Counted from the whole stretch's first letter, positions 4,695 to 9,639 are shown. The stretch is 62,123 bases of DNA, filler included, from Globobulimina sp. (GCA_003354225.1; 13 parts of 13 records of this genome joined end to end with filler, not necessarily neighbours in it), one strand, 5' to 3'. Program-made: numbers and translations. The notes: a model not told the origin generated them from the letters alone.

Positions 4695-4794
4695 NNNNNN
4701 NNNNNNNNNNNNNNNNNNNNNNNNNNNNNNNNNNNNNNTTAATTAATTAANNNNNNNNNNNNNNNNNNNNNNNNNNNNNNNNNNNNNNNNNNNN
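4695..4794. other. Artificial contig linker (first of 12)
   Basis: 44 N + TTAATTAATTAA (stops in all six frames) + 44 N. Repeats at 9489-9588, 14280-14379, 19070-19169, 23858-23957, 28646-28745, 33433-33532, 38218-38317, 43003-43102, 47786-47885, 52566-52665 and 57345-57444. Confidence 0.98.
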
Positions 4795-4841
4795 TCAAGT
4801 AACCTTAAAAATGATGTTGTTTTTTCCAAAACTCTATACAG

Positions 4842-7800
4842 GGTCTAATCAAATACATCGGTGAGAAAGAATTCAGTGCTGGCAAACCAATGCTCGGCAT
4901 CGAATTAGACGACGAGGACCCCACTGCACAAGACGGCAGTGTTGGGAGCAAGACCTATTTCAACACGCCAATGGGCAAAGGCATCTTCGTCCGGCGTGCC
5001 AGTGTGGTGGCCGTAGGCAACAAAGAGCTCGCCGCCTTCATCAAAGAAGTGCAAGAAAACAAAAGCAAAGACAACAGGCAGTCGGATGACGACCAAGATG
5101 ACGACGAAAGCGATAAAGTGTCTGATTTAGAGCAAGAAGACGATAATCGCGTGATGGAGGTGGGCGATTACGTTGAATTAGGATCGGGCATCACGGGCAT
5201 TATCAAATTTATCGGTGCCACTGACTTCGCCAAGGACGAATGCATCGGCTTAGAAATGAACACTTGGGACAGCGAAGGCGGCGACGGCACGCGTAACGGC
5301 AAGAGATACTTTCGCAGCAAACCCGGCCACGCGACGTGGACGCGGAGGAATAAGATCGCGCGGTATTTGAAAGTACCCGCACACTTAAAAAATGTCGACA
5401 TTCAGCAGTTGTTGAAAGAGCGTACCGTGGACGGCAAACGCATTGATTTGGTGGAGCGGTTCGCGCAAATCGAGGCGAAGCAGAGCAAGAAGGATCTGAT
5501 GATGTCGATGGGCGCCATCGGCATCCCGACGCAGACGCAATTTGATAACGCCAAGGTTGGTGACAGAGTGGAATTGGACCGTGGCAAAATGGGCACCATT
5601 CGCTACATTGGCCAGGTCAAATTCAATTCGTCTGAGGAACTGCTGGGGATTGAGCTGGACCGCTTTGATGCGCAAGCGCATGACGGCCGGGGCTACTTTG
5701 AGACAAAGAAGGGCCACGGCCACGCTATCTTTAAGACGAAGGACGCGATCAAGCGGCTGATACCTATGGACAATGTCAGTACGCCGGTGATCAGCGAAGG
5801 GGGCAGCGAAGGGTTTGGGTTTATTGCGGCGAATAATATTCAGATTGACGATCGGGTGCGGTTACAAAATGGAAGGACGGGTGTGATTCGATGGAAGGGT
5901 CTGTTCGATAGCAAAGATATTGGATATACCGAGGCTGAGGATGGTGAGAGTAAAGAGGCTGAACAAGAAACAAAATCTAGTGAACCGAGGGAACATTTTG
6001 GCATTGAATTGGATATTAGCGATTCGAGCGGGAATAATGGATATTACAAAGAGACGAAATATTTCAATTGCGCTCCGAATCGAGGCATATTTGTGCCGTT
6101 TGAGGAGATTATGGAGAATCTGGGCAGTACACAGACGGAATGGCTGCACCATAAATACACGATTTTGCAGGATCAGCATGTGATTTTGAAGATAAATATG
6201 CGCATTCAGACGGTTATCGGGGGCTGTGGTATTATTCGCTATTTGGGGAATCCCGGGTTTGTGGATGATTTGATGTACGGACTGGAACTGGATCAGTGGT
6301 CTCCCAACGCGACCAATGGCTTTGTCAACGGAGAGGAGTTTTTCTTATGCGAGCAGGGCAAAGGCTTTTTTGTGGGGAGAGAGTCGATCATAAAGTGTCT
6401 GACTGCAGACGATATGGAGGTGATTGAGCCCGCTGCCATGGACTTGCCGCAATTGAAGAAAATGCCTCGAATGCATGATAAGATTAAGTTAGTTGATGGC
6501 CAGATTGGTGTGATTTGTTTCATTGGAATGTTGGAGTTCAGCTCGGAGACTTATATTGGCATAAAATTGGATCAATGGTCGCCTAATGGCAACGATGGCA
6601 GTGCTGCGGGCAAAAAGTACTTTAAATGCGAACCTGGCCATGGATATTTTGTGAAATTGATCGATTGTGCTGCCAATTTAGGCAGTATTATTTCGACTGC
6701 ATTCAAGAACAAAGCACGCGATGAGCAGAAAAAAACAGGGAATTTGCTCAAAGTTGGGGATAAGATCAAGTTGCAAGATGGCGGCGTGGGCATAGTGAAA
6801 TATATTGGCAGCACACACTTCAACGAAGAGGATATGGTCGGTATTGAATTGGATTCGTGGTCGGCCAATGGACATAATGGCAAAGTGAAAGGACGGACAT
6901 ATTTCAAAGCTACGCCAGGCTGCGGCACATTCGCTCGAAGAGGCTCTATCATGCAACGGATCCCAATGAATTTAGGTATTGATTCTGCGGCGTTGGTGCC
7001 GTTACCCGATGCCGGGGACAAAGTGAAACTAAAAAACGGCGATATTGGCGTGGTGCAATGGATTGAGGACACTGCGTCGAAGCCTGATGAACAGAAACAA
7101 ATTCAGATCCAGTTACTGGAGCAAGATGGAGGCAGTGTGCTGTCGAGTGTGAGTGCCATTACTTTGATGGATGTGGAGGAGAATTTAGGTCGACAGACCA
7201 CAGTGGACGACCAAGGCGTGACTGAGGCGGATATTTGTGTCGGTGTACATGTGCGTTTAACGCGGGGCAAGACGGGCCATATCCGGTATATTGGCGCAGT
7301 GGGCAATGTGGATGAACTGATTGGCATTGAATTGGATTCGTGGAGTCATAATGGCCATGATGGAAAGGGACATTTTAAATGTCAAATTGGAAGGGGTTAC
7401 TTTACGAAGCGGACCAATATCATCGGCATTATAGCACTGACCGAGAAGTCGACGCAGGAACAGTTGCAGCTGAAACGCCATCGGAATATACGCAAACTGC
7501 GGAAGAAGTTGCGCAAGATTTTGATGTTGGAGCAGAAGGCTAAAAATGGATTGAAATTATCAGATGAACAGCAACAGCAGTTGGTGAATAAAGGCGAATA
7601 TCAACGGCAATTACAAGAGTTGCAACAAGCGTTTGCTAGGAATACGCCTGCGATTCAGATTGATGATATCGTGAAACATGACATTGTGAGCATACAAAAG
7701 ATACCCGAGGTAGCCATGTACGACACGATTATCTTAGATACGGGCGAACGCGGTCGGGTGGTGTTTATCGGTGATGTGCACTTTGATGACCATGAAATGT

Positions 7801-9488
7801 TAGGCATTGTACTGGATAAATGGTCGCCTAACGCGCACAATGGAAGTATTGATGGGAAATCGTATTTTGTGGCGCCTGATGGTCGTGGATTGTTAGTGCC
7901 CAGCTCTGCAGTACATGACGTTGTAGATGGCACCAATGTGAATAGAGCAGACAGCGTCGATGATGATGAAAAACATGTAGCTTCTCTCGGCGGTGAAGGC
8001 AATGACACGTTATCCAAGTTAAAAGTAGGTGATTCTGTGCAATTAGGTGCGAAAAAGGGCACTGTGAAGTATGTGGGCACTACAGACTTCAGCAAAGATG
8101 AGCCAGTGCTGGGCATCGAATTGGACGATTGGTCCGCCAATGCCAATGATGGCAGCATCGCCGGTAAGAAATATTTCGACGCTTCGCCTGGAAAAGGCTA
8201 TTTTATGCGGAAGCAATCGTATATGACCTTGGCAGACATGCTGAATGCCTCAGAGTTTACGGATAATCCCGACAATGAAATATACCGTCGGGACAGTGTG
8301 GTTATTCACGATGTATCGCATATATTGCCCATCGAGTATGACCTCGGCGATAAGGTTAGGTTAGAAAGTGGCGATTGTGGCGTGATCAAATTCATCGGCA
8401 AGACTTCCTTTTGCGTGGATAAGCTCATTGGAGTGGAGCTGGATAAATGGAGTCCCAATGGACACAATGGTTCGTATAAAGACACGCCGTATTTTGATGC
8501 CGTGGATGGGCGCGGCTTCTTTGTTCGACACGACTTGATTGTCAGTAAAGTGGACCCAAATAACCCAATGCCTTTAAGTACACTATACAATAAATCCATA
8601 ATCCGGCCGCCGAATACACGCATTGGTGACCGCATACGATTGAAAAATGGCTTAGTTGGCGTGGTACGCTTCCAAGGGAAGGTTGACTTCTCTCAGGACG
8701 TGTACTTAGGATTGGAGCTGGAAGGCAAGCATTATAACGGCAACGACGGCCAAGCGCATGCTCGGAGATATTTCAGTGTGCGTAAGAAACGCGGCTACTT
8801 TGCAAGGAAGACTGAGATCGCACGCATTTTGACCTCGTCCGGTGCGAAATCCCTAAAACAGATGAAAAAAGTCAAGTCGTTGACTGATTTCCCCAAATTA
8901 GGGGATAAGGTCAAGACTGCAAAGGGTAAAACCGGCATTGTGCAGTATGTCGGCTCCACGAACTTCGCGAAGGGTATCTTGATTGGCTTGGTGCTGGACC
9001 AATGGTGGCCGAATGGACATGATGGCAGCGTCAAGAAACAGAGATATTTCCGTTGCGCGACGGGTCGTGGCTACTTTACGCGGTTATCGCATTTAATTGA
9101 AAACTATGGACCAGCCACAAACGACAATGAAGATGATGTCATTCGCGATTATAACGAAGAACAAACGCACAGCAATCTCAACCGTAACCGCAGTATACCG
9201 GATCACGGCGAGGGTGAAGGCAGCGATATGCCTAAGTTTAAAGTCGGTGATCGGGTCAAATTACAGCACGGCAAGACCGGCGTAGTGCGTTTTATCGGCC
9301 GGCCTGATTTCGCTGAGGACGAAGTAGTGGGCATTGAGTTGGATACATGGAGCGCCAATGCGGGCGATGGCAGTGTTCGCGGAGAGCACGTATTTCAAAC
9401 CAGTGCCGGTCGCGGCTACTTTACACGGCGCAAATCCGTGGCCAATATCATCCAATCCAGGATCACTGAGGGTGCGTATGCACGGTTA
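4842..9488 (+). CDS. Giant multi-CAP-Gly domain protein (partial at both ends)
   Basis: At least 14 units of GDxVxL..G..G.(I/V)x(Y/F)(I/V)G...F.....G(I/L)ELDxW..N(G/A)x(D/N)G...G..YF.....G.F. The exon starts after the acceptor ctatacag at 4841 (GLIKYIGEKEF) and runs off the contig end. Confidence 0.92.
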
Positions 9489-9639
9489 NNNNNNNNNNNN
9501 NNNNNNNNNNNNNNNNNNNNNNNNNNNNNNNNTTAATTAATTAANNNNNNNNNNNNNNNNNNNNNNNNNNNNNNNNNNNNNNNNNNNNGAGGGCAAGAAA
9601 AAAGGCGCTTTGTGCGCAACAAACCGCTGATTTACATAC

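What the first reader, a model, noticed from the sequence alone, without database searches (positions are those of the whole stretch)
4842..9488. Poly-CAP-Gly protein: at least 14 CAP-Gly domains in one 4.6-kb exon, open at both ends
Seen: 14 clear CAP-Gly units, one degenerate unit (about 7010-7190) and the probable start of another at the contig end. The units are diverged at DNA level, so this is not an assembly stutter. None has the canonical GKNDG; variants include NGHDG, NGNDG, NGHNG, NAHNG and NANDG, usually preceded by LDxW. Known: characterised CAP-Gly proteins (p150glued, CLIP-170, TBCB/E, CYLD) carry 1-3 domains, and GKNDG binds C-terminal EEY/F tails of alpha-tubulin and EB proteins. 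Inference: a multivalent microtubule cross-linker or scaffold with altered tail specificity. If the host is a foraminiferan, it is a candidate component of the reticulopodial microtubule system with its divergent tubulins and helical filaments.
Basis: partly seen in the sequence, partly recalled or inferred. Interest (0 to 1): 0.82.

Follow-up and report, generated by a model that had tools for sequence, protein, structure and literature searches.

The report
Foraminiferal giant multi-CAP-Gly protein
This stretch is one long exon of a foraminiferan gene that strings together 14 intact copies, plus one conserved half-copy, of a small domain that normally grips the tails of microtubule proteins; it belongs to a family so far named only in foraminifera, with the largest such arrays found and a rebuilt binding pocket, and no paper describing it was found.

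Summary
The window is 13 short contigs joined by N spacers. The finding's contig (4795-9488) is one open frame from a splice acceptor at 4841/4842 to the contig end. Each of 14 units alone passes Pfam's CAP_GLY threshold (34.5-65.6 bits). A fifteenth unit (7011-7211) keeps only the N-terminal strands. No unit has GKNDG.

The units share 46% DNA identity on average, so this is not an assembly stutter.

The gene is the colinear orthologue of Reticulomyxa filosa RFI_31450 (35% identity; 20 Pfam units, 24 with a family profile). A Nonionella stella transcript is 50% identical. Every named close relative is a foraminiferan. Among 1.84 billion representative proteins, only four reach 10 or more units.

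The fold is CAP-Gly (pLDDT 94; TM 0.88 to CLIP-170). Two of the five residues that bind EEY/F tails are replaced in all full units: the core Trp and the Lys of GKNDG. A new Trp sits in a loop that is one residue longer.

Function is inferred, not shown. The best reading is a multivalent tubulin or microtubule binder with non-canonical specificity. No paper describing the family was found. It is a new variant of a known kind.

The parts
4795..4841 (+). 3' end of an intron: in-frame TGA at 4812-4814, a pyrimidine run, and acceptor AG at 4840-4841
   Evidence: Sequence read. In all 4 laid runs the contigs match only from 4838 onward. Before that point they carry other letters that continue the CAP-Gly reading frame (tables 7 and 8).
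4842..9488 (+). One uninterrupted coding exon (1549 codons), cut off by the contig end
   Evidence: Run contigs cover it with no joint, apart from short cross-matches to paralogues. Of the 40 differences listed between runs, 34 fall at codon position 3 and 36 are synonymous.
4842..4997 (+). U01, CAP-Gly unit lacking its first 12 profile positions, which lie on the upstream exon
   Evidence: Pfam 50.3 bits, profile positions 13-64. The loose ends supply the missing N-terminal strand.
5160..5348 (+). U02, CAP-Gly unit (motif EGGDG)
   Evidence: Pfam 48.1 bits.
5556..5735 (+). U03, short CAP-Gly unit (QAHDG; four residues shorter after the motif)
   Evidence: Pfam 43.9 bits.
5844..6098 (+). U04, CAP-Gly unit split by an acidic insert of about 30 residues
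   Evidence: Pfam 51.1 bits across residues 4-91. The family profile matches it in two pieces.
6192..6380 (+). U05, CAP-Gly unit (NATNG)
   Evidence: Pfam 40.8 bits.
6471..6659 (+). U06, CAP-Gly unit (NGNDG)
   Evidence: Pfam 62.7 bits.
6753..6941 (+). U07, CAP-Gly unit (NGHNG), basic
   Evidence: Pfam 63.1 bits; net charge +2.
7011..7211 (+). U08, divergent half-unit that keeps only the N-terminal strands and is conserved as such in orthologues
   Evidence: No Pfam CAP_GLY hit. Family profile 19 bits over 25 residues. 31-40% identical to its positional counterparts in three relatives, with invariant residues.
7239..7412 (+). U09, short CAP-Gly unit (NGHDG), basic, among the best conserved
   Evidence: Pfam 34.5 bits. 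62-65% identity to positional counterparts; net charge of +4 or +5 in all four proteins.
7413..7715 (+). Conserved basic linker (net charge +8); two long helices are predicted at 7452-7640
   Evidence: No Pfam family. 31-43% identity to counterparts, with 23 invariant residues. AF2 predicts helices at residues 871-901 and 908-933 with pLDDT about 78-80, in a model of low overall confidence.
7716..7901 (+). U10, CAP-Gly unit (NAHNG), acidic, among the best conserved
   Evidence: Pfam 46.7 bits. 59-66% identity to counterparts; net charge -5 to -10 in all four proteins.
8025..8213 (+). U11, CAP-Gly unit (NANDG)
   Evidence: Pfam 63.0 bits.
8343..8531 (+). U12, CAP-Gly unit (NGHNG)
   Evidence: Pfam 53.9 bits.
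8622..8810 (+). U13, CAP-Gly unit (NGNDG; no Trp before the motif), strongly basic
   Evidence: Pfam 54.6 bits; net charge +8.
8898..9086 (+). U14, CAP-Gly unit (NGHDG), strongly basic; this is the unit that was modelled
   Evidence: Pfam 65.6 bits. AF2 pLDDT 94.3. Foldseek TM 0.88 and rmsd 1.4 A to CLIP-170 CAP-Gly 1.
9243..9431 (+). U15, CAP-Gly unit (NAGDG)
   Evidence: Pfam 57.9 bits.
9432..9488 (+). Lead-in to a conserved non-CAP-Gly module that lies beyond the contig end
   Evidence: Orthologues P0003, P0004, P0006 and P0198 continue from the same residues into a shared module. Contigs of runs X6 and X7 continue past 9487 in the same way.

Best explanation
WHAT IT IS (shown). The stretch is one exon of a foraminiferan nuclear gene. 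It is the orthologue of Reticulomyxa filosa RFI_31450, a giant protein built from a long chain of CAP-Gly domains. The exon encodes 14 intact CAP-Gly domains, one conserved half-domain, and one conserved basic two-helix linker. The full protein is longer at both ends. Orthologues continue with a small unnamed module, more CAP-Gly units and a second helical linker.

HOW THE DOMAINS DIFFER (shown). The CAP-Gly fold is kept, but the peptide groove is rebuilt. The core Trp and the Lys of GKNDG are gone. The motif loop is one residue longer and carries a new Trp (the LDxW pattern).

HOW IT LIKELY WORKS (inferred). The chain is a multivalent binder of tubulin or microtubules. Individual units grip a C-terminal tail or an acidic surface patch through a non-canonical groove. 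Each contact is weak, and the sum over many units gives tight binding along or between polymers. The basic helical linker adds electrostatic contact. Because each unit keeps its own identity and charge across species, the units are probably not interchangeable. Some may bind partners other than tubulin.
For: DOMAIN IDENTITY. 14 of 15 units pass the Pfam CAP_GLY threshold on their own. The model of U14 has pLDDT 94.3. The 45 best PDB fold matches are all CAP-Gly entries, and the top one is CLIP-170 CAP-Gly 1 at TM 0.88.

ORTHOLOGY. A single colinear BLASTP alignment to RFI_31450 covers the whole query at 35% identity. It includes the half-unit, the two short units and the basic linker. Units U10-U15 match N. 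stella units 3-8 one to one, scoring 232-276 against 144-189 for the second-best unit. Identity to positional counterparts is 31-66%, against a mean of 35% between units of the same chain.

LIVE, EXPRESSED-LOOKING GENE. 36 of the 40 differences listed between runs are synonymous, and the two 3-base indels are in frame. Contigs of 4 runs from 3 studies replace the 43 bases upstream of 4838 with in-frame sequence for the missing N-terminal strand of U01. That is what a spliced transcript would show.

GROOVE. At the positions of p150Glued F52, W57, K68, N69 and R90, the 13 full units show F 92%, W 0%, K 0%, H 46% or N 23%, and R 61%. In 43 metazoan units the values are F 100%, W 100%, K at that column 65% (27% more one column away), N 97% and R 51%. 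Trp at the new loop position occurs in 76% of window units and 0% of metazoan units. Over 573 units the core Trp and the loop Trp almost never occur together: 9 have both, 265 have only the loop Trp, and 173 have only the core Trp.

BACKGROUND FROM PAPERS. CAP-Gly domains bind EEY/F tails of alpha-tubulin, EB proteins and CLIPs. Asn-to-His in the motif is tolerated (PMC3806363, passages; bioRxiv 10.1101/2022.08.09.503328, passages). Retaria have divergent alpha2 and beta2 tubulins with changed surfaces, which the authors propose as MAP-binding sites (PMC5455982, passages).
Against: No binding of any kind was tested.

The Lys of GKNDG is lost in every full unit of the window, and PMC3806363 singles out mutation of that Lys or of the Asn to alanine; the passage shown broke off before stating the effect, which from recall is loss of tail binding. 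So canonical tail binding may be gone rather than retuned.

Only 4 of 15 units (U07, U09, U13, U14) are basic. Six are acidic, with net charge from -1 (U01) to -7 (U08), which suits acidic tubulin tails poorly.

Other CAP-Gly domains that lack the motif bind non-tubulin ligands, for example CYLD CAP-Gly 3 with ubiquitin (PDB 7owc and 7owd; PMC8511506, abstract start only).

The library type of the laid runs is not on record, so expression and splicing are inferred. The C-terminal tails of foraminiferal tubulins and EB proteins could not be examined here.
Confidence: 0.55

Rival explanations
1. The protein is a scaffold for ligands other than tubulin. After losing the tail-binding Lys and the core Trp, the rebuilt CAP-Gly units act as general peptide-binding or ubiquitin-binding modules, as in CYLD. 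The chain would then assemble signalling, motor or actin-linked complexes rather than bind microtubules directly.
For: Two of the five EEY/F-binding residues are absent from all 13 full units. Most units are neutral or acidic. Each unit keeps its own sequence and charge across species, which fits many different partners. CYLD CAP-Gly 3 bound to ubiquitin is among the fold matches, at TM 0.82-0.84. Foraminiferal relatives combine this CAP-Gly type with EF-hands and RPEL repeats, or with a myosin head. RPEL as an actin-binding motif is recalled, not tested here.
Against: F52 and R90 equivalents, the Tyr-Phe pair and all fold glycines are kept. So a groove suited to a C-terminal aromatic residue may still exist. 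The closest sequence and fold matches are tail-binding CLIP-170, CLIP-115 and p150Glued, at 38-45% identity, not CYLD at 22-25%. His at motif position 3 is tolerated for tail binding (PMC3806363).
Confidence: 0.25
2. The protein is a tubulin store or template. Each unit would hold one tubulin dimer, or one alpha2/beta2 dimer. The chain would line up a row of dimers and so help the fast switch between helical filaments or paracrystals and microtubules that is peculiar to foraminifera.
For: So far the family is named only in foraminifera. These organisms have divergent tubulin paralogues and helical filaments (PMC5455982; PMC4990898, passages). The unit count is very high: 15 in this partial exon and up to 24 in RFI_31450. 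Unit starts are spaced 76-159 residues apart. From general knowledge, that could span the 8-nm dimer repeat. TBCB and TBCE use CAP-Gly domains to handle unpolymerised alpha-tubulin (PMC3806363; TBC-DE-tubulin cryo-EM entries 9m1l and 9m1m appear).
Against: This is purely inferential. No stoichiometry, binding or localisation data exist. The heterogeneous unit charges do not suggest 15 equivalent dimer sites. The multi-unit AF2 model had low confidence (pTM 0.34), so no fixed geometry can be claimed.
Confidence: 0.12
3. The array is an artefact or a dead gene: an assembly stutter, a contaminant, or a decaying repeat.
For: The contig is short and its GC content (0.48) is above that of most neighbouring contigs in the window (0.30-0.38). 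One unit is degenerate.
Against: Units share only 46% DNA identity on average, and no tandem repeat is detected. The 1549 codons contain no stop. 36 of 40 listed run differences are synonymous. Near-identical sequence occurs in runs from 3 studies. The colinear orthologues include the 'degenerate' unit. GC3 of other ORFs in the window ranges from 0.20 to 0.61, which brackets this exon's 0.55.
Confidence: 0.02

Closest known systems
Reticulomyxa filosa RFI_31450, with paralogues RFI_03278, RFI_06887 and RFI_05929 (database entries named 'hypothetical protein')
   Same: Colinear over the whole exon at 35% identity. It shares the half-unit, the two short units and the basic helical linker. It has the same LDxW...N(G/A)xDG loop and no GKNDG motif. 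It has 20 Pfam units, or 24 with the family profile.
   Different: It comes from a different, distantly related foraminiferan. The entry is itself partial and appears to contain unspliced inserts. No paper describing it was found. The R. filosa genome paper is not held in the library, so I could not check it.
CLIP-170 / CLIP-115 (CAP-Gly linker proteins, microtubule plus-end trackers)
   Same: These are the best sequence and fold matches for a single unit: 2cp3 at E 5e-11, and 2e3i at TM 0.88 and rmsd 1.4 A with 44% identity. The glycines, the Phe, the Tyr-Phe pair and the GxGxF strand are conserved.
   Different: CLIPs have two CAP-Gly units with canonical GKNDG and the core Trp, then a long coiled coil and zinc knuckles (for the motif; the rest is recalled). 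Here there are at least 15 units and no GKNDG. No CLIP1_ZNF family is found in the window protein or in P0003-P0008. The motif loop is one residue longer.
Dynactin p150Glued CAP-Gly
   Same: Same fold (1txq at TM 0.88). The F52 and R90 equivalents are mostly kept. A basic segment lies next to a CAP-Gly unit. The parallel with p150's basic region is recalled, not tested.
   Different: p150Glued has a single domain with W57, K68 and N69 intact (PMC3583065). Here the W57 and K68 equivalents are absent from every full unit.
CYLD (three CAP-Gly domains that bind ubiquitin and other non-tubulin ligands)
   Same: It has several CAP-Gly units in one chain, and its units depart from the tail-binding consensus. 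Its fold matches at TM 0.72-0.84.
   Different: Sequence identity is only 18-25%. CYLD has three units plus a deubiquitinase domain. No such domain is seen here.
Tubulin cofactors TBCB and TBCE
   Same: A CAP-Gly domain is used to handle alpha-tubulin. Natural variation in the GKNDG loop changes how the tail sits in the groove (PMC3806363). Fold matches are 4b6m, 1whg and 9m1l.
   Different: These have one CAP-Gly unit each, combined with ubiquitin-like or LRR domains. None of those domains is present here.

Membership tests
CAP-Gly domain (Pfam PF01302) | Sequence scores above the curated Pfam gathering threshold (26.5 bits) | tested here: met
   14 of 15 units pass on their own, at 34.5-65.6 bits. 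U08 does not. The whole exon scores 581 bits with 14 stretches.
CAP-Gly domain (Pfam PF01302) | Small beta-barrel CAP-Gly fold | tested here: met
   Tested for one unit only (U14). AF2 gives pLDDT 94.3 and pTM 0.81. Foldseek ranks CAP-Gly entries in the first 45 places, best TM 0.88-0.89 and rmsd 1.3-1.4 A. The other units were not modelled one by one.
CAP-Gly domain (Pfam PF01302) | Conserved structural glycines and the aromatic core (Phe, Tyr-Phe, GxGxF) | tested here: met
   Profile columns 13, 19, 30 and 43 are Gly in 100% of the 13 full units, and column 58 in 92%. F23 is 92%, Y50 76%, F51 100% and F60 76%.
Canonical EEY/F-tail-binding CAP-Gly (CLIP-170 / p150Glued type) | GKNDG motif in the loop beside the groove | tested here: not met
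   0 of 15 units match G[KR][NH]DG. The loop reads (P/A)-N-(G/A)-(H/N)-(D/N)-G and is one residue longer than in solved CLIP and p150 domains.
Canonical EEY/F-tail-binding CAP-Gly (CLIP-170 / p150Glued type) | Five key contact residues: F52, W57, K68, N69 and R90 (p150Glued numbering; PMC3583065) | tested here: not met
   In the 13 full units the values are F 92%, W 0%, K 0%, N 23% (His 46%) and R 61%. Two of the five are systematically replaced.
Canonical EEY/F-tail-binding CAP-Gly (CLIP-170 / p150Glued type) | Measured binding to C-terminal EEY/F peptides or to tyrosinated microtubules | not testable with these tools
This needs ITC, NMR or co-sedimentation.
CLIP family of plus-end trackers | Two N-terminal CAP-Gly units, a long coiled coil, and C-terminal zinc knuckles with an ETF tail | tested here: not met
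   There are at least 15 units. No CLIP1_ZNF (PF16641) or other CLIP family is found in the exon or in relatives P0003-P0008. The true C-terminus is not on the contig.
Orthologue group of R. filosa RFI_31450 (foraminiferal poly-CAP-Gly proteins) | Colinear unit-by-unit correspondence, including the non-CAP-Gly landmarks | tested here: met
   One BLASTP alignment covers 100% of the query. The 4-protein alignment has invariant residues in the half-unit and in the linker. Positional identity is 31-66%, against 35% between paralogous units. On unit cores alone, only 6 of 15 units pick their colinear R. filosa partner as best hit, while 6 of 6 do so for N. stella units 3-8.
Orthologue group of R. 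filosa RFI_31450 (foraminiferal poly-CAP-Gly proteins) | Loop Trp (LDxW) in place of the core Trp | tested here: met
   The loop Trp is present in 10 of 13 full window units and the core Trp in 0 of 13. In 102 units from 11 proteins (the window's own, P0002, the unnamed ENA protein P0004, and nine named R. filosa or N. stella proteins), 68 have only the loop Trp, 6 have only the core Trp, 4 have both and 24 have neither.

The most novel reading that the evidence does not exclude
The chain is a tubulin ruler or reservoir specific to foraminifera. Each rebuilt CAP-Gly pocket would recognise the tail or surface of the lineage's divergent alpha2/beta2 tubulins, one dimer per unit. A single molecule would then hold a pre-aligned row of 20-30 dimers. 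It would drive or stabilise the very fast interconversion between helical filaments or paracrystals and microtubules that powers reticulopodia. The position-specific units and the basic helical linkers would set register and polarity.
Probability: 0.1. Interest if true: 0.88.

Novelty: new variant of a known kind. Interest (0 to 1): 0.63.

Why it matters
Foraminifera build and dismantle microtubules exceptionally fast and can convert them into helical filaments (PMC5455982, PMC4990898, passages). Both papers point to divergent tubulins as the cause. One of them explicitly asks for data on microtubule-associated proteins (PMC5455982). In my searches I found no molecularly identified foraminiferal MAP.

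This gene family offers a concrete candidate that can be cloned. It uses the one domain class known to read tubulin tails. It is expanded to array sizes found in only four of 1.84 billion representative proteins. Every named member is a foraminiferan. Its binding pocket has been rebuilt in a consistent way.

The near-exclusive swap between a core Trp and a loop Trp also defines a structural subclass of CAP-Gly domains. That subclass could show how specificity for peptide C-termini evolves.

If the units do not bind tubulin at all, the family is still the largest known use of CAP-Gly as a general scaffold module.

Tried and rejected
- WHOLE-GENOME SEARCH. No genome is held for this window. I could not count CAP-Gly genes, find the upstream exon or find tubulin genes in the same organism.
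- EARLIER FINDINGS OF THIS SCAN. There was nothing for this genome, and two unrelated hits by words.
- SEQUENCING RUNS. No RNA holder is listed. The four laid runs are contigs of unrecorded library type, so they cannot give expression level or strand. The joints 6903>8058, 8092>9330 and 9360>7774 rest on sides of 31-35 letters. I read them as cross-matches to paralogous CAP-Gly genes, not as splicing.
- SELF-ASSOCIATION OF THE BASIC HELICAL LINKER (residues 858-958, two copies). The job returned no verdict, with score 0.00. This is no evidence either way.
- AF2 MODEL OF U09-LINKER-U10 (4-row alignment). Mean pLDDT was 65 and pTM 0.34. I use only the helix prediction for the linker. No claim is made about how domains pack, and I ran no fold search on this model.
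- UNIT-CORE BEST-HIT TEST AGAINST R. FILOSA. The result was ambiguous for 9 of 15 units. Orthology to R. filosa therefore rests on the full-length colinear alignment and its landmarks.
- ANTISENSE ORFS (128-180 aa). The four longest have no Pfam family. There are no Rfam matches on the contig.
- CAP-GLY ON THE OTHER CONTIGS. None of the other 12 contigs of the window encodes a CAP-Gly unit.
- LITERATURE. 'CAP-Gly' with 'Reticulomyxa' gave 0 papers. 'CAP-Gly' with 'foraminifera' gave 0. Phrases for multiple or tandem CAP-Gly domains gave 4 papers, 2 of them listed, and both concern CLIP or p150. The Filoreta cytoskeleton preprint does not mention CAP-Gly. The R. filosa genome paper is not held.
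- PROTEIN ATLAS. The nearest cluster is 'CAP-Gly domain-containing protein', most commonly Foraminifera, at score 0.79. That is below the level that counts as more than a lead.

Full report
WHAT THE WINDOW IS. The 62,123-base window is not one locus. It is 13 contigs of 4679-4694 bp, ordered by length and joined by N44-TTAATTAATTAA-N44 spacers. The finding sits on the second contig, 4795-9488. The other contigs carry unrelated eukaryotic genes: PPR, a FYVE plus Cpn60_TCP1 protein, a flavin monooxygenase, WD40 and RCC1. None of them encodes a CAP-Gly unit. No whole genome is held for the window.

THE READING FRAME. The + frame has no stop from 4815 to the contig end. Just upstream lie an in-frame TGA (4812-4814), a pyrimidine run and ...tatacag|G at 4841/4842. 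That is a normal splice acceptor. I laid contigs of four public runs from three studies on the contig. All four match from 4838 onward. Before that point they carry 30 letters that, in the exon's frame, spell the missing first strand of a CAP-Gly domain (tables 7 and 8). Two of the runs also continue past 9487. The library type of these runs is not on record, so 'spliced transcript' is an inference. It is nevertheless the simplest reading.

No joint interrupts 4838-9488 apart from three short cross-matches of 31-35 letters, which I attribute to paralogues. Of the 40 differences listed between runs, 34 lie at codon position 3 and 36 are synonymous. The two 3-base indels are in frame. A further 297 differences were not shown. 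The frame is therefore under purifying selection. The four longest antisense ORFs match no Pfam family, and there is no Rfam match.

COUNTING THE UNITS. Pfam CAP_GLY matches the 1549-residue translation with 14 stretches and 581 bits. A profile built from the units themselves delimits 15 units. Scanned one at a time, 14 of 15 pass Pfam's gathering score of 26.5, with 34.5-65.6 bits.
- U01 lacks its first 12 profile positions because of the splice site.
- U04 carries an acidic insert of about 30 residues.
- U03 and U09 are four residues shorter after the motif.
- U08 (7011-7211) does not score in Pfam and keeps only the N-terminal strands.

No unit has a GKNDG-type motif (0 of 15). The units are old copies. 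Over 105 pairs, mean identity is 35% for protein and 46% for DNA, with a maximum of 57%. Tandem Repeats Finder sees no array.

One sub-claim fails. The last 19 residues are not the start of another CAP-Gly unit. In four relatives the same residues run into a shared non-CAP-Gly module.

RELATIVES. The best hit is R. filosa RFI_31450, a partial entry of 2604 aa. One colinear BLASTP alignment covers the whole query at 35% identity. The alignment pairs the half-unit with a half-unit, the short units with short units, and the basic linker with a basic linker.

Other relatives are colinear as well. A Nonionella stella transcript (P0006) is 50% identical over 47% of the query. An unnamed ENA protein (P0004) is 43% identical. 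An unnamed metatranscriptome protein (P0198) is 74% identical over the last 216 residues.

Window units U10-U15 pick N. stella units 3-8 one to one, scoring 232-276 against 144-189 for the runner-up. Against R. filosa, unit cores alone pick the colinear partner in only 6 of 15 cases. In a four-protein alignment, identity to positional counterparts is 31-66%. U09 and U10 reach 59-66% and keep their charges (+4/+5 and -5 to -10) in all four proteins. So the array, its half-unit and its linker predate the split of these foraminiferal lineages. Each unit has its own conserved identity.

HOW UNUSUAL THE ARCHITECTURE IS. I searched a profile of 12 window units against 1.84 billion representative proteins. 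It found 7418 proteins at E<=0.001. Among the 150 best, four have 10 or more matched stretches:
- RFI_31450, with 24
- the ENA protein P0004, with 14
- RFI_03278, with 13
- RFI_05929, with 10

None of the rest exceeds 8. Pfam counts for the same proteins are 20, 13, 12 and 9. The window's 15 units in a partial exon would rank second.

Every named protein that scores above the metazoan CLIP3 and CLIP4 proteins is from R. filosa, N. stella or Bolivina argentea. Many others come from unnamed environmental records, so the family's true range is not known.

Foraminiferal relatives also combine this CAP-Gly type with EF-hands and RPEL repeats. An unnamed ENA protein combines it with a myosin head.

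Full-text searches found no paper that pairs CAP-Gly with Reticulomyxa or foraminifera. I also found none on large CAP-Gly arrays. The R. filosa genome paper is not in the library, so I could not check it.

THE DOMAIN ITSELF. An AlphaFold2 model of U14, using the 12 window units as its alignment, has pLDDT 94.3 and pTM 0.81. The first 45 PDB fold matches are CAP-Gly entries. The best is CLIP-170 CAP-Gly 1, at TM 0.88, rmsd 1.4 A and 44% identity. Sequence search of solved structures agrees, and it shows that the motif loop is one residue longer than in CLIP-115, CLIP-170 and p150Glued.

PMC3583065 (passage) names F52, W57, K68, N69 and R90 of p150Glued as the residues that bind EEY/F tails. 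I aligned 622 units to one profile and compared those positions:

| p150Glued residue | 13 full window units | 43 metazoan units |
|---|---|---|
| F52 | F 92% | F 100% |
| W57 | W 0% (Met, Leu, Val, Tyr or Cys instead) | W 100% |
| K68 | K 0% (Gly 53%, Ala 46%) | K 65% at that column (27% more one column away) |
| N69 | His 46%, Asn 23% | N 97% |
| R90 | R 61% | R 51% |

A Trp appears instead four residues before the motif. It is present in 76% of window units and 0% of metazoan units. Over 573 units from the window protein and its top-scoring relatives, the core Trp and the loop Trp almost exclude each other. Nine units have both, 265 have only the loop Trp, 173 have only the core Trp, and 126 have neither. 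The units are related to one another, so the nominal P value overstates the independence of these counts.

PMC3806363 (passages) states that Asn-to-His at motif position 3 is conservative. It also singles out mutation of the Lys or the Asn to alanine; the passage shown broke off before stating the effect, which from recall is loss of tail binding. The fold and half of the groove are thus kept. The part that clamps the terminal carboxylate and the aromatic ring has been rebuilt.

BETWEEN THE UNITS. Unit starts are 76-159 residues apart. Most linkers are short, and either acidic or mixed in charge. The 101-residue linker between U09 and U10 (7413-7715) differs. It has net charge +8, no Pfam family, 31-43% identity to its counterparts and 23 invariant residues. 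AlphaFold2 predicts two long helices there, at residues 871-901 and 908-933 with pLDDT about 78-80. The model as a whole is poor (mean pLDDT 65, pTM 0.34), so it says nothing reliable about domain packing. A test of self-association of this linker gave no verdict. Similar basic helical segments recur further along RFI_31450 and P0198. The protein therefore seems to be built from blocks of several CAP-Gly units separated by such helices.

HOW IT MOST LIKELY WORKS. This part is inference. CAP-Gly is a domain class known to read the C-terminal tails of alpha-tubulin, EB proteins and CLIPs. The nearest relatives of single units are tail-binding CLIP and p150 domains, not CYLD. Foraminifera have divergent alpha2 and beta2 tubulins with altered surfaces, and microtubules that convert to helical filaments (PMC5455982; PMC4990898).

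The best-supported reading is a multivalent tubulin or microtubule binder. Its units would use a non-canonical groove, many weak contacts would add up, and the basic helices would add electrostatic grip. I put this at about 0.55.

Three results count against it:
- The Lys is lost in every full unit.
- Only 4 of 15 units are basic, and six are acidic.
- Position-specific conservation suggests that the units do different jobs.

Those same facts support the main rival, a scaffold for non-tubulin ligands in the manner of CYLD (about 0.25). A bolder variant is one tubulin dimer per unit, acting as a store or template for the switch between helical filaments and microtubules. It is not excluded, and I give it about 0.1. 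An artefact or a dead gene is effectively ruled out.

VERDICT. The foraminiferan guess is supported, and so is the 'altered pocket' at sequence level. The microtubule cross-linker role is plausible but untested. The thing itself is a new member of a foraminiferal family that already sits in public databases as unnamed hypothetical proteins. Measured against described CAP-Gly proteins, it is a new variant of a known kind, both in the scale of the array and in the consistent rebuild of the groove.

Noticed in passing
window 1-62123 (spacers at 4695-4794, 9489-9588 and every ~4.79 kb after that): The window is 13 unrelated contigs of nearly equal length, joined by N44-TTAATTAATTAA-N44 spacers. 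Nothing on either side of a spacer is genomic context.
   Followed up: yes
beyond window 9488; P0003 about residues 1700-1770, P0004 about 1195-1270, P0006 about 730-800, P0198 about 205-275: A conserved module of about 60 residues follows the exon in all four orthologues. Pfam reports no family for it at E<=0.001 in P0003, P0004 or P0006 (P0198 was not scanned). Its fold and role are unknown.
   Followed up: partly
units of P0002-P0019 and P0045-P0187 (profile columns 28 and 36): Core Trp and loop Trp are almost mutually exclusive across 573 CAP-Gly units: 9 have both, 265 have only the loop Trp, and 173 have only the core Trp. This defines two structural subclasses of the domain. The units are related, so the statistic is not an independent test.
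   Followed up: partly
P0019 (R. filosa RFI_31451), P0017 (Nonionella stella), P0022 (Bolivina argentea), P0041 (unnamed ENA): Other architectures use this CAP-Gly type: 3-6 units with EF-hands and an RPEL repeat, and a myosin head with 2 units. RFI_31451 lies on the same 12,090-bp contig as RFI_31450 and may be part of the same gene.
   Followed up: partly
P0006 (Nonionella stella), residues about 870-1971: The N. stella orthologue carries a C-terminal extension of about 1100 residues with no Pfam family at E<=0.001. RFI_31450 has nothing like it. It may be a real fusion or a chimeric transcript.
   Followed up: no
window 5844-6098, 6471-6700, 7011-7211, 8898-9120: A short ENLG-like motif (ENLGS, ANLGS, ENLGR, ENYGP) recurs just after several units and is invariant in the four-protein alignment. 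It may be a conserved C-terminal cap on a subset of units.
   Followed up: no
long ORFs on all contigs of the window: Third-position GC of long ORFs ranges from 0.20 to 0.61 across contigs. The cause may be strong expression-linked codon bias or a mixed assembly.
   Followed up: no
window 6865, 7823, 8055, 8093, 8887-8919 (loose ends): Run contigs that match only short pieces here continue as other CAP-Gly coding sequence. So the same organisms carry several paralogous CAP-Gly array genes.
   Followed up: no
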